This document shows, piece after piece, positions 5,892 through 13,688 of a stretch of DNA of 64,000 nt. The notes below the pieces were generated by a model, which was not told the DNA's origin, ran no database searches, and saw only the letters and a program-made list of their open reading frames with translations. The translations under genes were made by a program, and so were the position numbers. Each line of letters opens with the position of its first letter. The stretch's first letter is position 1. Location of the stretch: the IMG/VR virus record IMGVR_UViG_3300020158_000335, positions 11,155 through 75,154 of that record; one strand, given 5' to 3'. This stretch comes from a virus.

Positions 5892-8800
5892 TTATGCCGC
5901 CTTTATGTCTGGAAGCCCGTCTGTGACCCAAGACGGGACGTTGGCTATAGCAGCAGGGATACTGTCTTTGTTAATGACGTTGAATTGGCCCCAATCTTTG
6001 AAATCTCTGGTTGCGCCATCCCCCAGTGTTGACTGCTCTAATGCCAGATACAGATATGCAATTTGTAGAACGATCTGCTTCGATTTAGCAGAAAATTGGA
6101 AGAGGTAATGTCCGTATGAATCCCATTCTTTTGAAATAATATAGTAACCATCGGAGTTACTTGTTTTCTTATGTCCGCTCACAGATTGAAAAGTAGCAAA
6201 CGGTTCATAAAAAAGAGGGTTCTTCTTGATCTTCTTATCGAGCATTTTATAAAATGCGTCAATAGGCTTTGAAGCATCGGTAATTGCTTTGGCCAGTTCC
6301 AAATCACCAATGAATTTTTCTTTTTCAGAACCAGACGGAGGGGTAGCCAGTATGCCCAAAATCATTTTAAACATTTCAGGGTCATTTACCACTAATTCGT
6401 GCATTAATTCAGGGGACGAAAACTGCTGGATGCCCATTGAAAAGACTTCTGTTGAGTTATCTGCCCCATAATACTTCCCGACATAAGCGTTGAACAGGTG
6501 GTCTGTGTATGCCACTTCATCATCTTTGTAGTTTTCATTCCCGGTCAGAACAGATAATTTTATCAACCCCTTTGTTTTATCAACTCTACCGTCGAGAAAC
6601 GTATTGGAAACTGATACATACTTTGCGTCATCTTCAACTAAATGCCCCATTTCATGCCATAACGTACTCTTGGTAAACTCAGCCCCGACATGGATAATCT
6701 TTCGACCGACTTCAGCGCAAGCTCTTGGTTGGCCTTTAAACCTTTCCTGGATGTGACATTTACCGAACCGCCCCCCGCTTAACCGGTATAATTCCGCCAT
6801 GTCTTTTCTGATATTGGCCTCGCCATACCCGGCTTTTGTTGTTGTTCCCGATTTGCCTGTTACCGATATTTCAACTGCCAAGTAGTTTATCGCGGATTTG
6901 TCTATCACCTGGTCGCTGACCCATTGGTTGGCCTGCTTTTCGGTAATGGGTGATGATTCAAGCATTTTTTGAATCAATGGGTTATAAGTTTTGGCGAGTG
7001 CATCTGATAGTTCTGTGTTTAGCTGCTGCTTCTTATCGGAAAAAGACTTTTCTTTTGTTTTGTACTCAGATTTAAGATTTTGATATTCATCAGAAGCGAG
7101 AAATTCATCCAGAGCTTCTTGAATAATTTTTAGGTTTTTAGCGTATCTCTCTTGTGTTTCAGCAGCCATTAGAGAGTATGCTTCATGCAGTTTGATCCAT
7201 TCGTCAGTTTTTGCCCGTGTGCCTGATATCCTATTTGCGATGGCGTCCAAATAAGAACCCGCAACTGCCGTCTCTCTTTCTACATCCCCCAGCTTTTTGG
7301 TATATCCTAATCGGTCTTCAAGTGTTGATTTATCTGCTCTATATTTAAGCTCTGCCGCAGACCGTTCTTGTTCAAGGGATAAAAGGTCATTTCGTGCAGC
7401 AGAAACCTTCAGCGCAACCGGTCTAAAGCCAGGGGCCGTTGACCATGCATCTACAATCTCTTCCCCTTTGGCTTTTGCAGCATCAAAGATTTCCTTCCCG
7501 GCTTCCTTCGATAGTTCTGACATCGGCTTAACGTTTTCATATCCTGACACCATCCGAGCCAATGTGCCAGGGGCGATTGTGATGAGCCTGTCTTCTGACA
7601 TCGACTTACGCATTAATTCTGAGATTTCATATCTTTGGATAGCGGTTACTGCCACGTTGTAATCAGAGACCAATAATTCAAGTCGATCTATATGGTCGAA
7701 CACGGTTATAGCGTCTTGTGGCTTGTTTGGCATATCTTCTGACATAATTCCTGACGCCTTGAACGCAAGATAAATATCATCAAATGTGGTTGCAGCCCGG
7801 AGCATATCTTTCCAGTCGCCGCCATCTTCAAGGATTGCGGTCTCCATAACCGGATCATCATCCAGCATATCCTTTGCCATTGCAGGAGCAGGCGCAGCGC
7901 TTTCCAAAATACCGCCCCAGTCCTCCCGCCATGCCGCCAGGTACCAAGTCTTCCTGTCCGGGTCCCATGACACCGTTGCAATCTCACCCTGCCACGATAA
8001 ATCGACTTTCGGTCTGCTGGATGGCCCGTATTTTCGCTTGATATGTCCACGGGTCAACATATCCACAAGCCTCATGCAGAGTTCACGGCCTGACTGTTCG
8101 CTGGGCAGGTTTTTTTTTTCAAAATCCTGCTTGGCGATGATTCGGGCAATGCCGTCACCATCAGCAAAAAGCGGGGCAGTCCCAGTATTCCCCCAAAGGA
8201 GGGCAATCCAGCCGATATCCGGACGGCTGGCACCCTGTATGGTGTTCTTTTGGGTATCCAGCGTGTTTTTCATGGCCCGCTTGGATTGATCCTGGGCGAT
8301 GGTGGGCTTTTGGTTCGGCTGGACGGTGGATTCAAGAATCATGGCTTTGCCTATTGTTATTTCCTGCAAGCCGAGTGTAAAAGTCGCCTTGATTTTTTTG
8401 GGGTACACTGCTGCCATGCCCAGAACAAGTTTCTCGTTGACATCAAGTTCTGCATAAATTCCATATTTAGGCCCAATCATACTTCTGAGTGAAGGTGCGC
8501 CTTTGCCTTCTATTGATAGAGTATATACTCCAGGGGGTAACTTCAGGATTGCTGCTTCAAGTAAAGCCCGTCTGCCATCACCGTACACTGAAAGGTAAAG
8601 TTTGTTTTTCGTATTTAAAATGCTACTCCTGGCAATACGAGACAGAAGTTTACGTACGGTTGTTTCTCCTTCATCTGTCTCGATCTTTTGATCCAGATGG
8701 GCGGAGGATTCAAGAATTGATCCGATTGAAGGATCGAATGTGCCCTGATTCTCTACCGCTTTGATTTGGTTCGGATTAAAAGCTATCCAGACAAGGTGTT

Positions 8801-10268
8801 CTTTACCACCGCCCATTATATTGCCGCCGATGTGAGTAATGCCGTCATAACCAACATTTTGCAATACCTGATTTGCGACGGCCTTGCTATCTGCTTGTTG
8901 TTCAAGCAATGAGTAATTATAACCTCCTGGCGTGGTACGTTTTATTTCTTTTGATATAAAATCATCAATTTCTGTATCTGAAAATTTTACAAGAGCAGGA
9001 AACAACAGCATCCATTCGTTACGGGACAACAACTGCATATCAAGAGTATCTTTGTCCGCGTCAAACGGGTTCCGAATGTTCAGGAAGCATGAATAAACGG
9101 CGCGGTTGGCTTCTGTTTTTCCTGCCACTAACGGCATTGCGATTTTTATTCTTTCGCTGTTAAGGAAACCCCTGGCATCCCGTACCAGATGTTCTACAGC
9201 ACCGTCAGATAAAAATAATTGTTGGTTATCATCTGACGATAATGCACCAGCCCCAATGTCCATTACATCCATGTTAAATACCTTCAAAAAGGTATCACGG
9301 AACTCTTCCTTGATCGTTGCCCATTCCACGACTTCCTTACCCATATATTCCCGAGCCACATCTTTGTTTTCAGTAAAATAAAACCCTGGCCCATATAACG
9401 CTGTTTTATCCTGCTTTGAAATGTCGAATTCCTTAAACCCGGCTTTGGCTGTGCCGTGATATACCGGAACTGGAGTTTGAATTTTGTGGGTTTCCTGGGG
9501 AGAGCCGTCTGGGTTTACGACTTTGGATGTTATTTTTCCATTGACAATATCAATAAGATGTGCGATCTTCTCCCCATAGCCTGCGGGCGGTGCTGCTACT
9601 GGCGAGGACATTTCTTGTGTCGAGGTCAGCCCTTCACCACATGACGCAGGCTTTCCTATTTCTACCGCTTGCACAAGATACAGACGAGTTCCACGTTCCT
9701 TCCTGGTATATTCCTTTGCCATGATTTTTACACACAAGACTTCACCGTCGAATTTCATCGGGACATCAAAATGGTGTATTTCTTTGATGTTTTCGTTTCC
9801 CTTGCGGTCATCACGAGACATCCTAAAAGCTGAAGCCTGAAACAGCCTGTCAAGATTTGCAATAGCCTGCATGTGGGCTTGAACTGAGACTGATCGTTCA
9901 TACGCACTTTTGCTCAACATCTTCAGCAGCGATTCACCTGAAACGGTTGCTGTGAATCCGGTGTCGATATTAACCAGGGGCACCCCGATAAACTCTTTCG
10001 CTGCTGCCTTTGCCTGGTCTGATCCCCGCGCATATCGCATATTCCCCAGAAGCGCAGCCTTTTCCCAATCCCCAAACCATTCCTTAAACTTCTTGGCCTT
10101 CACGCCGTTTTCTGAGTAATCATACTTGGCATAATCAGCCGGGAATTCCGCTTCAAACACCGCCGCAATATCCCCGAATGTTTGAGCATTCCGGATTGCA
10201 TCACGCCAGTCCTTCGCTGCGGGTTCGGGGGTGCCGCCATCCGCTGGGGTTCCGGATTCAAGAATCAT
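5892..10268 (-). CDS. Large polyvalent protein: LPD3-like domain inserted in an ART-PolyVal-like ADP-ribosyltransferase, degenerate PBECR-like domain, coiled coil, zincin metallopeptidase
   Basis: FKEWFGDW..SKVVNPDG..VYHGT..GFYFT..GYDGI..AFNPNQIK; LVNIDTG..HMQAIANLDRLF..VKIMAKE; LWHEMGH..TEVFSMG. Confidence 0.8.
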   Translation of the reverse strand: MILESGTPADGGTPEPAAKDWRDAIRNAQTFGDIAAVFEAEFPADYAKYDYSENGVKAKKFKEWFGDWEKAALLGNMRYARGSDQAKAAAKEFIGVPLVNIDTGFTATVSGESLLKMLSKSAYERSVSVQAHMQAIANLDRLFQASAFRMSRDDRKGNENIKEIHHFDVPMKFDGEVLCVKIMAKEYTRKERGTRLYLVQAVEIGKPASCGEGLTSTQEMSSPVAAPPAGYGEKIAHLIDIVNGKITSKVVNPDGSPQETHKIQTPVPVYHGTAKAGFKEFDISKQDKTALYGPGFYFTENKDVAREYMGKEVVEWATIKEEFRDTFLKVFNMDVMDIGAGALSSDDNQQLFLSDGAVEHLVRDARGFLNSERIKIAMPLVAGKTEANRAVYSCFLNIRNPFDADKDTLDMQLLSRNEWMLLFPALVKFSDTEIDDFISKEIKRTTPGGYNYSLLEQQADSKAVANQVLQNVGYDGITHIGGNIMGGGKEHLVWIAFNPNQIKAVENQGTFDPSIGSILESSAHLDQKIETDEGETTVRKLLSRIARSSILNTKNKLYLSVYGDGRRALLEAAILKLPPGVYTLSIEGKGAPSLRSMIGPKYGIYAELDVNEKLVLGMAAVYPKKIKATFTLGLQEITIGKAMILESTVQPNQKPTIAQDQSKRAMKNTLDTQKNTIQGASRPDIGWIALLWGNTGTAPLFADGDGIARIIAKQDFEKKNLPSEQSGRELCMRLVDMLTRGHIKRKYGPSSRPKVDLSWQGEIATVSWDPDRKTWYLAAWREDWGGILESAAPAPAMAKDMLDDDPVMETAILEDGGDWKDMLRAATTFDDIYLAFKASGIMSEDMPNKPQDAITVFDHIDRLELLVSDYNVAVTAIQRYEISELMRKSMSEDRLITIAPGTLARMVSGYENVKPMSELSKEAGKEIFDAAKAKGEEIVDAWSTAPGFRPVALKVSAARNDLLSLEQERSAAELKYRADKSTLEDRLGYTKKLGDVERETAVAGSYLDAIANRISGTRAKTDEWIKLHEAYSLMAAETQERYAKNLKIIQEALDEFLASDEYQNLKSEYKTKEKSFSDKKQQLNTELSDALAKTYNPLIQKMLESSPITEKQANQWVSDQVIDKSAINYLAVEISVTGKSGTTTKAGYGEANIRKDMAELYRLSGGRFGKCHIQERFKGQPRACAEVGRKIIHVGAEFTKSTLWHEMGHLVEDDAKYVSVSNTFLDGRVDKTKGLIKLSVLTGNENYKDDEVAYTDHLFNAYVGKYYGADNSTEVFSMGIQQFSSPELMHELVVNDPEMFKMILGILATPPSGSEKEKFIGDLELAKAITDASKPIDAFYKMLDKKIKKNPLFYEPFATFQSVSGHKKTSNSDGYYIISKEWDSYGHYLFQFSAKSKQIVLQIAYLYLALEQSTLGDGATRDFKDWGQFNVINKDSIPAAIANVPSWVTDGLPDIKAA
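9541..9569 (+). promoter_or_regulatory. Antisense promoter nested after the LPD3-like domain
   Basis: TTGACA (9541-9546), 17 bp, GATCTT with extended-10 TG; the -10 is weak. Confidence 0.55.
9576..9660 (+). ncRNA. Candidate structured antisense sRNA (~80 nt)
   Basis: Terminal stem agcctgcg (9578-9585)/cgcaggct (9645-9652) at the predicted +1; nested helices ggtg/cacc, ctggc/gtcag, gaca/tgtc; pyrimidine tail. Confidence 0.5.
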
Positions 10269-10606
10269 GGCTGTACCGTTTTCTTGATTTCAATATATTT
10301 TTCAGTCGGTTGAATCACCGGTGAAACAGCCTGAATTTCATCCGTGATTGCCTTTATGATTTTGATAAACCGCTCCGGCTCTTCACCGTTGAATTTTCCG
10401 GCGATAAGGTCAGCAAGCTTCTGGTTCTGCTGAGCGGCTTCTGGTTGAAGGTCAATTTGTTCGTTCAGTTTGGCGAGGGCCGACTTAAACTCCTTTTGAG
10501 CTTCACGCTTTGCTGAAAAACTAAGCCCGCTGGATGCAAGCTCAGTTCGTTTTTGCGCCACTATCGCCTGCAATGTCCGTTTTTCTTTAAATCCAAGTGC
10601 CATCAC
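10265..10606 (-). CDS. DdrA-like small protein
   Basis: Position directly after darA as in P1; duplicated LxFxxKR motif. Confidence 0.5.
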   Translation of the reverse strand: MMALGFKEKRTLQAIVAQKRTELASSGLSFSAKREAQKEFKSALAKLNEQIDLQPEAAQQNQKLADLIAGKFNGEEPERFIKIIKAITDEIQAVSPVIQPTEKYIEIKKTVQP

Positions 10607-13092
10607 ATCACCTTTTTAGCTTCCTCGTTTAACAAACCGGTTAAATAATCAGCGACGGTATTCAGAAGCCCATCGTATTTCTCCATCAAGCCTGCGGTTT
10701 CCAGTGTTGCGGCTGCCTCATCCAGTATCCTGCCATATCCATCAGTATCCGAATCGTGAGCGCCGGACATCAGGTCATTCAGGGTGGCGATTGCGCTCTT
10801 GACATCCGCATCTTCTGGGGGTATATTATCCCCAAGGTTGCTCTCATTCGAGCGTCTGCTGTCTTCGGGCTGGCCGGGTTCTTCCACGGGGGCAGGAAAC
10901 GAAGGTGATTGGTCAGGATCATCAGCGTGCGCGACACGCAGGAGCAACTTTCTTCCACCTCTCTGCTCATAAGGTGTTTTGCTTTTTGGTTTGGCATCTT
11001 CAAGAAACCATGTTGTAACGCCGTAATATCCTCCGTTATTTTGCAACTCAACTGCTGCGAATTTACCACGTCCATTTCGTTTTACAAGCAACAGCCTCCC
11101 GTTAGGTTGTTCGTAAATTTCAGTGTAATGGCGGGTGATGTCCGAAAGTGCATCTATTTCGTCATTATATCCGTATGCCTTGAATTCCTTGATTCTGTCT
11201 TCTGCAATATGTGACTTACCATAAGCGCCGCCTTCCTCAAGTCGGATAGGTGCGGATGGGAATCTTCCCTCGCTGGCCGTTTCTATATCGGGGCCGATAC
11301 TCCCAAAATCAGAAGTTCCATCAGGCGCGGGAATGAATAGACTTCCAGGGGTTTCGACTTTATCCACTTCCGGCGCAATCTGTTCCGGAGATAAAGATGA
11401 TTGAGCGAGTTCGGGATATTCTGCGATAACCATTGTATCTACAGGTTCCCCTGCGGTTACGGCCCGTTTGACACTCCTGGCATGATTTCCTTCACTGATT
11501 GATATTATTTGAGTCCTGGCCTCAAGTTCCTTCGCTATTGCTTGTGGTATAGCTGCATCGGCGCGAAGCCCCGCGAGTGATTCGCCAGCACGAAGCCCTG
11601 TAATCGCTTGGTTAATAAGGTCGAGCGCTCTTTCCGCTGCTCCGTCTTCTTTCAGCCTGCGTTTGGGGCTTGTCCATAAGCCATAATTAGAAGGTCGGTT
11701 CCTATATTTTCCGTCAGGATATTCGGCTATTATACTCTTTGCGCTTTTAGCTTCCTGTTCAAGCATATAAATCAGATAATATTTTTTCGTCATTTCCCAG
11801 GGTTCCGGTACGTCCGGTTCCGGCATCACAAATTCCGGGACAACCGGCGTGACTTCCGGCGTGACGACTTCCGGGGCAACAGGCGTGACTTCCGGCCTTG
11901 GCGCTTTCCCACTGGTGTACAAATCTTCAACGTATTTATCCCATTGCGCCTGCGTGGCTTCACCTTTTTGAAGTAATTCCCACATTTGACCAGTCCACTC
12001 CTGATCTTGAGACCGAACCCCTGGCACCGCCATTTCCCCTACTTCTCTCAATCTGACAAACTCAAGTCGCTTGACTTCCCTCTCATTGGGGATTTTATCT
12101 TCCTTGATTTTAGCCATTATCCCCTTCAAGTCGTTTATAAACCCGTCCTGTTTCATCATGTCAAATGCTTGCTTATCTATCCCCAGGGAAAGAGCTTCAT
12201 CTTTAAGCGCCTCAAATTCCGAATCCATCGCCGCCTGCTTCGCCGCCGTTTCCGCCGCCATCGCCCGCGCCGCTTCATCCGCCTTGGCCTTCACCTGCAA
12301 TGCCGCAAGCTGGTTTTCCAAATCAGCATTTATACCCTGCTGTTTTTCAATCAAGCCTTGCGTCATGGTAATCTTTGTTTGGGTGATTTCCGCAGCAGAC
12401 TGTTGATCCCTAAGCCCGTTCATCAGAGCGACATTTTCAGTGGACAATTTATCAGCATCCGACTTCAAGGTCACAAGCTGTTCATTTTGAGCCTTCACGT
12501 CTTTTTGTGTCGTCTGAAACCTTGCAGAGTTCTTCACCACAAGCTGAGCTATACGTTTGCCCACCTCTTCCAGCGAAATCTCACCCTCGCCCTCTGGTGA
12601 CACCACAAGCGTAATATCCCGTTTATTCAGCAGCCAGCGGTAAGCAATAATCTCATCATCAGGGCCGATCTTCTTGGCGTCCCCGCTCGGGGAATGAAAC
12701 ACAATCGTAATGGCCTGCCCATCGGAAAACGGAATCTGAGCGGTAACATTTGCAAACAATCCGGTTTTCCGTGGTTTTCCGATAATTGCCTCAGCCGGTG
12801 CGATCCCTTCAGGCAGATGTTTTGCAAACACCCGGGCAAGCGCTCTCATCCTGCTGTCTGTCTGTGAGAATCTCTTGACTGTAACCGCCTCGTAAATCCC
12901 TTCTTCCAGAAACTCGCCGTCATTGTACTCATCGTCCATTTCTGCAAGAGTCGCACATTCCAGAATCAGCCTGTCTGTCTCATGGGTATTGGTCAACGCC
13001 ATATAAGCTCGAACCAACCTGTCGGGACCGAACCCTTTAACGAACAAATCAAGCCCGATTTTGTGCAATTTGCCTTCTGAGTATGGGTTCAT
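10603..13092 (-). CDS. darA: DarA-like virion antirestriction protein with an added C-terminal PBECR-like RNase domain
   Basis: FSDGQAITIVFHSP..RWLLNKRDIT..VVKNSARF N-domain and coiled coil; PIRLEEGGAYGKSHI..YYGVTTWF domain. Confidence 0.8.
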   Translation of the reverse strand: MNPYSEGKLHKIGLDLFVKGFGPDRLVRAYMALTNTHETDRLILECATLAEMDDEYNDGEFLEEGIYEAVTVKRFSQTDSRMRALARVFAKHLPEGIAPAEAIIGKPRKTGLFANVTAQIPFSDGQAITIVFHSPSGDAKKIGPDDEIIAYRWLLNKRDITLVVSPEGEGEISLEEVGKRIAQLVVKNSARFQTTQKDVKAQNEQLVTLKSDADKLSTENVALMNGLRDQQSAAEITQTKITMTQGLIEKQQGINADLENQLAALQVKAKADEAARAMAAETAAKQAAMDSEFEALKDEALSLGIDKQAFDMMKQDGFINDLKGIMAKIKEDKIPNEREVKRLEFVRLREVGEMAVPGVRSQDQEWTGQMWELLQKGEATQAQWDKYVEDLYTSGKAPRPEVTPVAPEVVTPEVTPVVPEFVMPEPDVPEPWEMTKKYYLIYMLEQEAKSAKSIIAEYPDGKYRNRPSNYGLWTSPKRRLKEDGAAERALDLINQAITGLRAGESLAGLRADAAIPQAIAKELEARTQIISISEGNHARSVKRAVTAGEPVDTMVIAEYPELAQSSLSPEQIAPEVDKVETPGSLFIPAPDGTSDFGSIGPDIETASEGRFPSAPIRLEEGGAYGKSHIAEDRIKEFKAYGYNDEIDALSDITRHYTEIYEQPNGRLLLVKRNGRGKFAAVELQNNGGYYGVTTWFLEDAKPKSKTPYEQRGGRKLLLRVAHADDPDQSPSFPAPVEEPGQPEDSRRSNESNLGDNIPPEDADVKSAIATLNDLMSGAHDSDTDGYGRILDEAAATLETAGLMEKYDGLLNTVADYLTGLLNEEAKKVM
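10799..10827 (+). promoter_or_regulatory. Antisense promoter nested after the PBECR-like domain
   Basis: TTGACA (10799-10804), 17 bp, TATATT (10822-10827). Confidence 0.75.
10834..10956 (+). ncRNA. Candidate structured antisense sRNA (~120 nt)
   Basis: Terminal stem aggttgctc (10835-10843)/gagcaactt (10942-10950) at the predicted +1; cUUCGg loop 10863-10868; ctggcc/ggtcag; gcgtg-cgcga-cacgc hairpin; U-rich tail. Confidence 0.55.
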
Positions 13093-13688
13093 TATGCGCC
13101 CTCCTGAGCGTTCTGAATCATGTCAATATCAAGATTCAGCTTAACGGTTTTGGCCTGCTCGTTTTTAAGCTGTGTTTCAAGCCCTGCAAGTTGATATTGA
13201 AGAGTTGTAACCTGGCCAGCCTGGGCGGTGGTCTCCGCCATGATGTTTTCGTTCGTGCCTTTAAGCTGTGCGACGGTTGCCGTAACTGTGTCAACCTGCG
13301 CTGATATGCTGGTATTGACCGCCTTTATCTTTGGGATTTTAACAATCCCGGCGTTTTTCTCTTTGGCTTTTGTGAATGCCGGTTCATTTGCCTTGACGTA
13401 GGTTATCACCTCATCAACAGCCTTGGCGATATCATCAACAGACTTGATCGGAATGACCTTTGCGTTAAGTTTGACCTGAAAAACGCCGCCGCCAGCCTTG
13501 ATTTTTACAGTTATTTTCTGGCCGGACGCAAAAACCAACGTGGCGGTTTTCATCAAAAACCCGGATTCGCGTTTGGCCTTGTTCGTGGCTTCAACATCTT
13601 CTACCGGGATGCCTGCCGTTTCAAATTTTTTAAGCACCGGCTTTAACCCGGCCTTGTCGAATTTCTCAAAATCTATGGTTAAAGCCAT
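13092..13688 (-). CDS. hdf: Hdf-like protein (DarA N-domain homologue)
   Basis: KRESG..LVFASGQKITVKIK..VFQVKLN plus coiled coil; directly upstream of darA. Confidence 0.75.
   Translation of the reverse strand: MALTIDFEKFDKAGLKPVLKKFETAGIPVEDVEATNKAKRESGFLMKTATLVFASGQKITVKIKAGGGVFQVKLNAKVIPIKSVDDIAKAVDEVITYVKANEPAFTKAKEKNAGIVKIPKIKAVNTSISAQVDTVTATVAQLKGTNENIMAETTAQAGQVTTLQYQLAGLETQLKNEQAKTVKLNLDIDMIQNAQEGA

What the first reader, a model, noticed from the sequence alone, without database searches (positions are those of the whole stretch)
10799..10956. Near-consensus antisense promoter and ~120-nt structured RNA behind the PBECR-like RNase of DarA
Seen: TTGACA-17-TATATT, a 9-bp terminal stem at +1, a cUUCGg tetraloop, a second hairpin and a U-rich end. 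It shares a CTGGC...GGTCAG pairing with the RNA at 9576, which may be chance. No ORF with RBS follows. The RNase-like domain keeps its G-x-x-H-I motif (GKSHI). Inference: an RNA antitoxin or decoy for an injected RNase appended to DarA.
Basis: partly seen in the sequence, partly recalled or inferred. Interest (0 to 1): 0.8.

Follow-up and report, generated by a model that had tools for sequence, protein, structure and literature searches.

The report
Structured antisense RNA gene inside darA
A small, elaborately folded RNA with its own conserved promoter is encoded backwards inside a phage gene, just behind a predicted RNA-cutting domain with which it is found in several unrelated giant phage proteins, so it may be an RNA "antidote" or regulator for that domain.

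Summary
TTGACA-17-TATATT (10799-10827, + strand) sits antisense in a P1-like darA gene, in the disordered linker after a PBECR3-like nuclease domain.

Six lineages carry a homologous element: the window, three IMG/VR contigs, two metagenome contigs and a Lamprocystis prophage. Five fit strongly and one weakly. They share a ~115-nt four-helix RNA (10835-10950) closed by a terminal stem at the predicted start.
- 22 of 38 base pairs show compensatory changes.
- G·U pairs fit only the antisense strand.
- A loop-loop pseudoknot also covaries.
- The promoter core TTG-17-TAnnnT is kept through synonymous and rare codons.
- One lineage reads the conserved bases in a different frame, so the nucleotides are under selection, not the linker protein.
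- Homology between lineages stops at the -35 box.

In three lake metatranscriptomes from two studies, the deepest contigs (135-171 nt) lie on 10842-10972.

Corrections: the "cUUCGg tetraloop" is part of a stem, and the U-rich end is not conserved. Rfam has no match.

The function is inferred. Domain and RNA occur together in different polyvalent proteins, which suggests a cognate neutraliser (antitoxin-like) or cis-regulator. Binding and neutralisation are untested. The scan has not noted this element on other DNA.

The parts
10799..10804 (+). -35 hexamer TTGACA
   Evidence: TTG is kept at the same aligned place in the window, L001, L003, L004/L005 and L015. L017 has TTTACT. Similarity between lineages ends just 5' of this hexamer.
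10822..10827 (+). -10 hexamer TATATT, 17-nt spacer
   Evidence: TAnnnT at 17 nt is kept in all lineages. It is written on the sense strand by the rare codons ATA, CTA or GTA. P(core kept | protein, own codon usage) is about 2.5e-6 over four lineages.
10834..10834 (+). predicted transcription start (A, 7 nt after the -10)
   Evidence: Inferred from promoter geometry. It coincides with the first base of stem P1. RNA-library contigs begin at 10842, 10862 and 10877 and none reaches upstream of 10834.
10835..10950 (+). conserved four-helix RNA core. P1 is 10835-10844 with 10941-10950. P2a/b/c is 10847-10869 with 10885-10903. P3 is 10904-10910 with 10917-10923. P4 is 10925-10929 with 10935-10939.
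   Evidence: RNAalifold finds 38 pairs, 15 of them compensatory, in 4 lineages. With 6 lineages 22 of 38 are compensatory. There are 6-7 G·U and no A·C pairs per sequence on this strand. The sense strand folds worse, -33.5 against -43.8 kcal/mol. CM R1 scores 97-137 bits in five lineages, one copy per locus.
10870..10875 (+). P2 apical-loop motif CUGGCC, 5' half of the loop-loop pseudoknot
   Evidence: 94% of cells paired with the P3 loop. 3 of 6 pairs have compensatory changes. Slid controls give 8-53%.
10911..10916 (+). P3 loop GGUCAG, 3' half of the loop-loop pseudoknot
10956..10987 (+). weak terminator-like hairpin (CACCU/AGGUG) followed by UUUUGCUUUUU; possible 3' end
   Evidence: The window version is weak (-6.1 kcal/mol, z 0.17). 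The L001 counterpart is strong (-16.9, z -2.5). It is not conserved in L003 or L004. RNA contigs of a relative all end 39-40 nt past 10972.
10842..10972 (.). stretch covered by the deepest contigs in three metatranscriptome runs
   Evidence: X17 has a 171-nt contig at depth 34.5, X18 a 151-nt contig at 10.5 and X20 a 135-nt contig at 17.8. Other pieces of the phage over the 4 kb laid are at depth 2-5, apart from 9578-9654. The strand cannot be read from contigs.
10933..11340 (-). PBECR3-like (BECR-fold) nuclease domain of the DarA-like protein, residues ~585-720, with His 628 (GKSHI) and Thr 694 (GVTT)
   Evidence: Pfam PF18812 scores E=0.006 (16.9 bits), below the 30-bit threshold. Homologues P0010 (103 bits) and P0005 (30.3 bits) pass. 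The AF2 model has pLDDT above 90, with a helix plus 4-5 strands. Fold matches to BrnT and CdiA-CT toxins are weak.
10813..10932 (-). low-confidence (probably disordered) protein linker, residues ~721-760, encoded opposite the RNA
   Evidence: pLDDT is 46-62 over model residues 160-200. L004/L005 read the conserved nucleotide block in another frame, TAGAR against DSRRS. P0013 also switches frame here.
10603..13092 (-). darA-like host gene (829 aa): DarA_N, coiled coil, PBECR3-like domain, linker and a C-terminal three-helix bundle
   Evidence: It is flanked by an hdf-like gene (13092-13688) and a ddrA-like gene (10265-10606).

Best explanation
Shown:
- A real small-RNA gene lies on the + strand, antisense inside the darA-like gene.
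- A sigma70-type promoter (TTGACA-17-TATATT, 10799-10827) should start transcription at about 10834.
- The product is about 120-180 nt. Its ~115-nt core folds into a four-way junction (P1-P4) braced by a kissing interaction between the P2 and P3 loops.
- The PBECR3-like domain, the RNA and the RNA's promoter form one conserved block. That block is found in DarA fusions and in several unrelated giant polyvalent proteins.

Inferred:
- The RNA is the cognate neutraliser of that nuclease module. It would be made from a host-type promoter in lysogens and early after DNA entry.
- It keeps the nuclease harmless to the phage's own cell in one of two ways. It may bind the domain through its folded shape (like a type III antitoxin), which I consider slightly more likely. 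Or it may pair with the mRNA just 3' of the domain's coding part and trigger its decay (like a type I antitoxin or lambda OOP RNA).
For: Promoter:
- 11 of 12 matches.
- The core positions are kept with an exact 17-nt spacer in five further loci, although the encoded residues differ (NIPPEDADVK, TLPPADENVN, NVSQSGRNVK, SVGQGAGEGK, KIAHPYPEVN).
- They are kept through synonymous choices (xTA and GTC/GGC codons). Joint P is about 2.5e-6.
- The same 10-codon motif spacing appears in six more protein clusters.

Structure:
- 15 of 38 pairs are compensatory in 4 lineages, and 22 of 38 in 6 lineages.
- 91-94% of cells are paired, against 37-50% when partners are slid. No shuffle out of 500 reaches this.
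- L015 was not used to build the model and scores 97.5 bits.
- The signal is confined to 10833-10960 and is stronger on the antisense strand.
- The pseudoknot covaries.

Nucleotide rather than protein selection:
- There is a frame change in L004/L005, and another in P0013.
- Identical codons occur at 6 of 11 conserved residues in the RNA region, against 10 of 64 elsewhere (p=0.009).

Expression:
- The deepest short contigs in 3 metatranscriptomes from 2 studies lie on 10842-10972. None extends upstream of the predicted start.

Cassette:
- Homology stops at the -35 box.
- Host architectures differ: DarA_N, ddrB-ParB, LPD1, or none.
- In L017 a weak match lies just past the gene's stop codon, in the same orientation.
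Against: - No experiment or computation here touches binding, neutralisation, or even RNase activity of the domain.
- The domain scores below Pfam's PBECR3 threshold.
- The strand of the RNA-library contigs is unknown, and contigs cannot prove transcription.
- There are only about six independent lineages, one of them weak (L017, 18.9 bits).
- In L004/L005 the -10 box abuts P1, so a normal start would shorten P1 to about 5 bp. The promoter there matches only 8 of 12.
- No conserved terminator was found.
- Linkage of RNA and domain could simply reflect that a disordered linker is the only place where an RNA gene can be embedded.
- Other near-consensus antisense promoters occur in this phage away from nucleases.
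Confidence: 0.5

Rival explanations
1. The RNA gene is real but has nothing to do with the nuclease. It is a trans-acting phage sRNA or protein-binding RNA, for example aimed at a host defence or host mRNA. It sits in the linker only because a disordered linker tolerates an embedded gene, and it is inherited with the neighbouring domain by simple linkage.
For: - The compact fold with a pseudoknot does not need an antisense target.
- Metatranscriptome contigs show a near-identical core (97-99%) next to a different 3' flank, so the RNA can change neighbours.
- The phage has an excess of strong antisense promoters elsewhere: 5 observed against 0.63 expected on the + strand.
Against: - In every locus with DNA, the RNA is immediately 3' of the same domain family and in the same orientation. 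This includes L017, where it is outside the ORF.
- R1 gave no convincing match away from this domain in about 300 kb of fetched loci. The only other match at E up to 0.1 is a 17.2-bit one (E 0.02) on one contig with no such domain nearby, which I read as chance.
Confidence: 0.3
2. The conserved structure acts in the sense mRNA or in single-stranded DNA, not in an antisense RNA. Examples are a translational pause or frameshift signal between domains, or a recombination hotspot for shuffling domain cassettes, in the manner of integron attC sites.
For: - Most helices can also form on the sense strand (29 pairs, -33.5 kcal/mol).
- The element marks a cassette boundary.
- Contigs do not tell the strand.
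Against: - There are 6-7 G·U pairs per sequence on the antisense strand. These become A·C mismatches on the sense strand, where P3 is lost.
- A sigma70 promoter is conserved through synonymous sites and points into the element.
- Short discrete contigs of high depth in RNA libraries do not reach the promoter.
Confidence: 0.08
3. There is no functional element. The promoter is a chance match, and the apparent structure and conservation come from protein-coding constraint and shared ancestry.
For: - The single-sequence folding z-score is unremarkable (-1.5 and -0.03).
- There are few lineages.
- Shuffle controls ignore phylogeny.
Against: - Slid-partner controls keep phylogeny and give 1-6 compensatory pairs against 15-22 observed.
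- Neighbouring coding sequence in the same alignment shows no structure.
- The bases are conserved across a reading-frame change.
- Synonymous sites elsewhere are largely diverged, with identical codons at 10 of 64 conserved residues.
Confidence: 0.03

Closest known systems
Type III toxin-antitoxin systems (ToxIN, CptIN, TenpIN)
   Same: An endoribonuclease-type toxin is paired with a structured RNA that would neutralise it by direct binding. The setting is phage or mobile-element conflict.
   Different: - ToxI-type RNAs are tandem repeats on the same strand, upstream of the toxin, and the toxin processes them.
- Here there is a single non-repeated four-helix RNA.
- It is encoded antisense, downstream of and inside the gene, and has its own promoter.
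- The toxin fold differs as well (BECR-like rather than ToxN/AbiQ-like).
- Binding is untested.
Type I toxin-antitoxin antisense RNAs (for example SymR/SymE, RatA/TxpA, SR4/BsrG) and lambda OOP RNA
   Same: A short cis-encoded antisense RNA comes from a constitutive sigma70-type promoter and overlaps the coding or 3' part of the gene it controls. OOP overlaps the 3' end of cII and directs RNase III cleavage.
   Different: - Known examples are one to three simple stem-loops. None that I know of has a four-way junction with a covarying loop-loop pseudoknot.
- Most type I toxins are small membrane peptides.
- Here the target would be one internal domain of an 829- to over 1800-residue virion protein.
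Toxin and immunity cassettes of polymorphic toxins (CdiA-CT/CdiI, Rhs, MuF toxins)
   Same: A BECR-type nuclease domain is exchanged between carrier proteins together with the element that lies immediately 3' of it.
   Different: The 3' element there is a protein-coding immunity gene on the same strand, after the stop codon. Here it is an RNA gene on the opposite strand, nested in an in-frame linker.
PBECR domains of polyvalent proteins (Iyer et al. 2017, PMC5512222)
   Same: [quoted passage not shown] It occurs in DarA-, ParB- and LPD-containing polyvalent virion proteins.
   Different: That study describes no RNA partner, antisense transcript or immunity factor for PBECR domains. The words 'antisense' and 'noncoding' do not occur in it.

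Membership tests
sigma70-type promoter | -35 TTGACA and -10 TATAAT hexamers 16-18 nt apart | tested here: met
   TTGACA-17-TATATT, 11 of 12. The core TTG-17-TAnnnT is conserved in five further loci. Activity was not measured.
Any Rfam 15 family | covariance-model match | tested here: not met
   No match at E up to 1 in window 9000-13500. Nothing at the element in L001, L003 or L004.
tRNA or tmRNA | ARAGORN cloverleaf or tag detection | tested here: not met
   No gene in the whole window. The four-way junction is cloverleaf-like in topology only.
Type III TA antitoxin RNA (ToxI-like) | tandem direct repeats of the RNA unit | tested here: not met
   No tandem repeat in 10600-11400. One R1 match per locus.
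Type III TA antitoxin RNA (ToxI-like) | RNA gene upstream of the toxin on the same strand, separated by a terminator | tested here: not met
   The RNA is antisense and lies 3' of the domain's coding part.
Type III TA antitoxin RNA (ToxI-like) | RNA binds and inhibits the endoribonuclease | not testable with these tools
   Needs binding and rescue assays.
Type I TA antitoxin / cis-antisense regulator | RNA transcribed antisense to, and overlapping, the toxin gene's mRNA | tested here: met
   The promoter and structure are on the + strand inside the - strand gene. In L017 the overlap with the ORF is only 8 nt.
Type I TA antitoxin / cis-antisense regulator | toxin is a small, usually membrane-active peptide | tested here: not met
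   The partner is a roughly 135-residue nuclease-like domain of an 829-aa protein.
Type I TA antitoxin / cis-antisense regulator | RNA lowers translation or stability of the sense mRNA | not testable with these tools
   Needs expression assays.
lambda OOP-like antisense RNA | ends at an intrinsic terminator | tested here: inconclusive
   L001 has a good hairpin followed by a U-run. The window's is weak, and L003 and L004 have none.
PBECR3 (PF18812), for the adjacent protein domain | Pfam score at or above the gathering threshold | tested here: not met
   The window's domain scores 16.9 bits against 30 (E=0.006). Homologues P0010 (103 bits) and P0005 (30.3 bits) pass, which links the family.
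PBECR3 (PF18812), for the adjacent protein domain | [quoted passage not shown] | tested here: met
   GKSHI has a nearly invariant His, and GVTT has a nearly invariant Thr in the fourth strand of the model.
PBECR3 (PF18812), for the adjacent protein domain | BECR fold | tested here: inconclusive
   The best Foldseek match is BrnT, E=0.17, with weak CdiA-CT and MazF rows. VIA-align gives CdiA-CT 7m5f_C at Z 6.6, rmsd 4.0, 104 residues aligned.
DarA | DarA_N domain and hdf-darA-ddrA gene order | tested here: met
   PF18788 E=6.6e-26. An Hdf-like gene lies upstream and a DdrA-like gene downstream.

The most novel reading that the evidence does not exclude
This would be a new class of immunity factor. 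A single-copy, compactly folded RNA (four-way junction plus kissing loops) is encoded antisense inside the linker of the very gene that carries its target. It binds and switches off a virion-delivered BECR-type nuclease domain. Because a host-type promoter on the incoming genome drives it, it could also act as a timer. The injected nuclease would work for the first minutes after entry and would then be silenced by the newly made RNA. Domain and RNA shuffle together between polyvalent proteins as a nested toxin-antidote cassette.
Probability: 0.25. Interest if true: 0.9.

Novelty: new variant of a known kind. Interest (0 to 1): 0.8.

Why it matters
- Polyvalent virion proteins carry many predicted toxic domains. 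How the producing cell and the phage's own RNAs are protected from them is not known, and the paper that defined these proteins names no immunity factor.
- An RNA gene that accompanies one nuclease domain gives a concrete, testable answer.
- Large surveys for structured RNAs in DNA phages looked only at intergenic DNA (PMC10690425). An RNA gene hidden on the opposite strand of a protein linker is therefore a blind spot.
- This phage has further strong antisense promoters, so there may be more such genes.
- The RNA itself is a new family with a tertiary contact. It is a good subject for structure and binding studies.

Tried and rejected
DNA for P0002 (90% identical) and for more than 10 further protein clusters with the linker motif could not be fetched.

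Searches that gave nothing useful:
- There was no near or protein-level match to the domain in the phage and plasmid collections. The tblastn hits cover DarA_N only.
- 400 genomes of the class of Lamprocystis gave only Lamprocystis itself.
- The back-translated pattern GRLLLVKRNG found only false positives in high-GC contigs (L008-L011).
- A DNA pattern for P4+P1 found 22 new unrelated loci. The only R1 match (L038/L040, 17.2 bits) has no such domain nearby and is taken as chance.

Ideas tested and dropped:
- The RNA at 9541-9660 is not a member of this family, and its own fold is unremarkable. Its homologues are too distant for a DNA alignment.
- No consensus structure or terminator lies 3' of P1.
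- A conserved antisense ORF is rejected, because the start codon is not conserved and indels of 2, 3 and 4 nt occur.
- The cUUCGg tetraloop is rejected.

Limits of the read data:
- In the RNA libraries, parts of the 4 kb without cover are not evidence of silence.
- The strand and the true ends cannot be read from contigs.
- VIA-align rows were dominated by the C-terminal helical bundle. No conclusion is drawn from families missing in that list.
Full report
**Setting**

The window is part of a 75-kb virus record found in lake and freshwater metagenomes. Positions 5892-13688 carry, on the minus strand, a P1-like anti-restriction operon:
- an Hdf-like gene (13092-13688);
- a DarA-like gene (10603-13092, 829 aa, DarA_N E=6.6e-26);
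- a DdrA-like gene (10265-10606);
- a 1458-aa polyvalent protein with LPD3 and ART domains.

The finding (10799-10956, + strand) lies antisense inside darA, opposite codons ~712-764.

An AlphaFold model of the last 269 residues, built on a 68-sequence alignment, shows three parts:
- a confident alpha/beta domain (pLDDT above 90);
- a low-confidence linker (pLDDT 46-62);
- a C-terminal three-helix bundle.

The domain matches Pfam PBECR3 only below threshold (E=0.006), but its homologues P0010 and P0005 pass. It keeps the His (GKSHI) and the strand-4 Thr (GVTT) that define active PBECR domains (definition in PMC5512222). Fold searches give only weak hits to BECR-type toxins such as BrnT and CdiA-CT. 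"PBECR-like RNase appended to DarA" is therefore a fair description, but RNase activity is not shown.

**The observation**

TTGACA-17-TATATT is there, with 11 of 12 matches. Transcription would start at about A10834, which is the first base of a 10-11-bp stem closing the whole element. Taken alone, the fold is not exceptional (z -1.5; z -0.03 with the 3' flank). The case therefore rests on comparison with relatives.

**Relatives**

Protein searches with the C-terminal part found a small family: 333 cluster representatives at E up to 1e-3 among 1.84 billion. DNA could be fetched for these:
- L001 (=L002/L006/L007/L016, one IMG/VR contig, a DarA fusion);
- L003 (a 1237-residue open reading frame with no Pfam match);
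- L004 and the nearly identical L005 (a Lamprocystis purpurea prophage; over 1677 aa with ddrB-ParB);
- L015 (over 1819 aa with LPD1);
- L017 (a 779-residue open reading frame).

**Structure**

RNAalifold on four lineages gives a 38-pair structure:
- P1 (10835-10844 with 10941-10950) closes a four-way junction.
- P2 is a long arm in three segments with conserved internal-loop bases.
- P3 has 7 bp and the loop GGUCAG.
- P4 has 5 bp and the loop CGCGA.

Fifteen pairs show compensatory changes. P4 is a clear example. The codons flanking the conserved Val-Ala change together (R..H, H..H, H..R, P..Q) so that the bases stay complementary.

Controls:
- 93.5% of cells are paired, against 37-50% when the 3' partners are slid by 1-3 columns. 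This control preserves relatedness. The structure has 15 compensatory pairs and the slid versions have 1-4. No shuffle out of 500 reaches the observed values.
- A sliding alifold scan over the whole domain-plus-linker alignment has one sharp minimum, -44.6 kcal/mol at 10833-10960 on the + strand. Elsewhere the values are -2 to -9.
- The 80 nt after P1 have no consensus structure.

A covariance model (R1) finds exactly one copy per locus. It recognises L015, which was not used to build it, at 97.5 bits, and L017 weakly at 18.9 bits. Both matches lie where expected. On the six-lineage alignment, 22 of 38 pairs are compensatory and 91.5% of cells are paired. That alignment is fitted to the model, so it leans towards the structure.

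The P2 apical loop (CUGGCC) and the P3 loop (GGUCAG) are complementary and covary. 94% of cells are paired, 3 of 6 pairs are compensatory, and slid controls give 8-53%. This is a likely kissing-loop tertiary contact.

**Strand**

Each of the window, L001 and L003 has 6-7 G·U pairs and no A·C pair on the + strand. On the sense strand these become mismatches. The sense-strand consensus is weaker (-33.5 against -43.8 kcal/mol, 29 against 38 pairs) and lacks P3.

**Promoter conservation**

- In all lineages TTGnCn (TTTACT in L017), a 17-nt spacer and TAnnnT stand at the same aligned place. The encoded residues differ.
- The -10 "TA" is written by the third base of an aliphatic codon, which is always the rare ATA, CTA or GTA. 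The -35 "G" is the third base of GTC or GGC.
- I resampled synonymous codons with each gene's own usage. The chance of keeping the six core positions is 0.10, 0.036, 0.055 and 0.013 in four lineages, a product of about 2.5e-6. This ignores shared ancestry.
- The same two residue motifs, ten codons apart, recur in six more protein clusters.
- Many phmmer alignments end at query residues 204-208, which is the -35 box.
- At the DNA level, similarity between lineages collapses immediately 5' of the -35.

**Nucleotides, not protein**

- L004/L005 have a 2-nt and a 4-nt indel. Between them the invariant block CGAGCGYCTGCTGTC is translated in another frame (TAGAR instead of DSRRS).
- P0013, which is 87% identical in the domain, switches to the window's alternative frame inside the same region. 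It could be an assembly artefact.
- Residues identical in four lineages share the identical codon in 6 of 11 cases within the RNA and promoter, against 10 of 64 elsewhere (p=0.009).
- No antisense ORF is conserved.

**Expression**

Five metatranscriptome runs hold a small part of the 4-kb stretch, and four were laid. Only contigs are available, so strand, level and true ends cannot be read.

Even so, in three runs from two studies the deepest contigs are short and lie on the element:

| Run | Contig length | Covers | Depth |
|---|---|---|---|
| X17 | 171 nt | 10842-10972 | 34.5 |
| X18 | 151 nt | 10864-10972 | 10.5 |
| X20 | 135 nt | 10877-10972 | 17.8 |

Other pieces of the phage over these 4 kb are at depth 2-5, apart from 9578-9654 (see Other points). 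None of the contigs reaches the promoter. All three run 39-40 nt past 10972 into the same sequence, which differs from the window. They therefore come from a relative with a 97-99% identical core and another 3' flank. This fits a discrete, stable RNA of about 170-180 nt, but it is a hint, not proof.

**Weak points**

- There are few lineages.
- L017 is marginal.
- In L004/L005 the -10 abuts P1, so P1 would be cut to about 5 bp. The promoter there matches only 8 of 12.
- No conserved terminator was found. L001 has a good one and the window a poor one.

**What it does**

What is shown is an RNA gene that occurs together with the PBECR3-like domain as one conserved block of domain, RNA and promoter. 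In the window the block lies between the DarA body and its C-terminal helical bundle. P0009 has that bundle, and the same DarA_N domain at its N-terminus, without the block.

Function is inferred by three arguments:
- In polymorphic-toxin cassettes, the position immediately 3' of a nuclease domain is where the immunity gene sits.
- A near-consensus host-type promoter predicts expression in lysogens and early after entry, when the late darA mRNA is absent or scarce.
- A four-way junction with a kissing loop and invariant internal-loop bases is more than a plain antisense regulator needs. It suggests recognition of a folded shape.

I therefore favour a cognate neutraliser of the nuclease module, with overall confidence 0.5. 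Direct binding is slightly ahead of antisense-triggered mRNA decay. The main rival (0.3) is an RNA with an unrelated trans function that merely lodges in a permissive linker. A sense-strand or DNA-level element (0.08) and chance (0.03) are unlikely.

**Comparison and novelty**

- Rfam has no match and ARAGORN finds nothing.
- It is not a ToxI-type RNA. It has no repeats and has the opposite orientation and position.
- It resembles type I antitoxins and lambda OOP in being cis-antisense, but it is structurally far more elaborate. Its partner is an internal domain of a giant virion protein.
- The founding paper on polyvalent proteins mentions no RNA or immunity partner.
- Surveys of structured RNAs in DNA phages examined intergenic DNA only.

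I rate it a new variant of a known kind: a cis-encoded RNA regulator or antitoxin in a new nested, cassette-borne form with a new fold.

**Other points**

- The window has five promoter-like sites with at least 11 of 12 matches on the + strand and none on the - strand. About 0.63 are expected per strand.
That RNA does not match R1.

Noticed in passing
window 10799, 13810, 19599, 36328, 44428 (+ strand): All five sigma70-like sites with at least 11 of 12 matches lie on the + strand, although nearly all genes from 1 to 58000 are on the - strand. Shuffles give about 0.63 per strand (Poisson P about 5e-4). The phage may carry several antisense transcription units.
   Followed up: partly
Metatranscriptome run X20 has short contigs at depth 20-31 on 9578-9654, with 4-6 mismatches and loose ends. 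The region does not match model R1, its MFE z-score is 0.09, and its homologues in IMG/VR are too distant for a DNA alignment.
   Followed up: partly
P0013, against window 10779-11075 (- strand, alternative frame): A 191-aa relative is 87% identical in the domain. It continues in the window's alternative reading frame across the RNA region (KAADARMRATL...). The bases are kept while the frame is not, or the contig has an indel error.
   Followed up: partly
RNA-library contigs laid on window 10842-10972: The contigs carry the RNA core at 97-99% identity. They then share a 39-40-nt 3' flank unlike the window, which has an in-frame stop on the sense strand. This points to a relative in which the RNA lies at or beyond the end of the upstream gene, as in L017.
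   Followed up: no
window 10606-10812 (- strand), DarA residues ~761-829: The C-terminal three-helix bundle (pLDDT 85-90) is shared with P0009, which has a DarA_N domain but no nuclease domain, and with other proteins matched only over this bundle (P0022, P0060, P0061). The nuclease-RNA block looks like an insertion just before this bundle.
   Followed up: partly
L001 4345-4400 (- strand): A strong GC-rich hairpin followed by UUUUGCUUUUU lies right after the RNA core (-16.9 kcal/mol, z -2.5). It is a likely intrinsic terminator in that lineage. The window has only a 5-bp version.
   Followed up: yes
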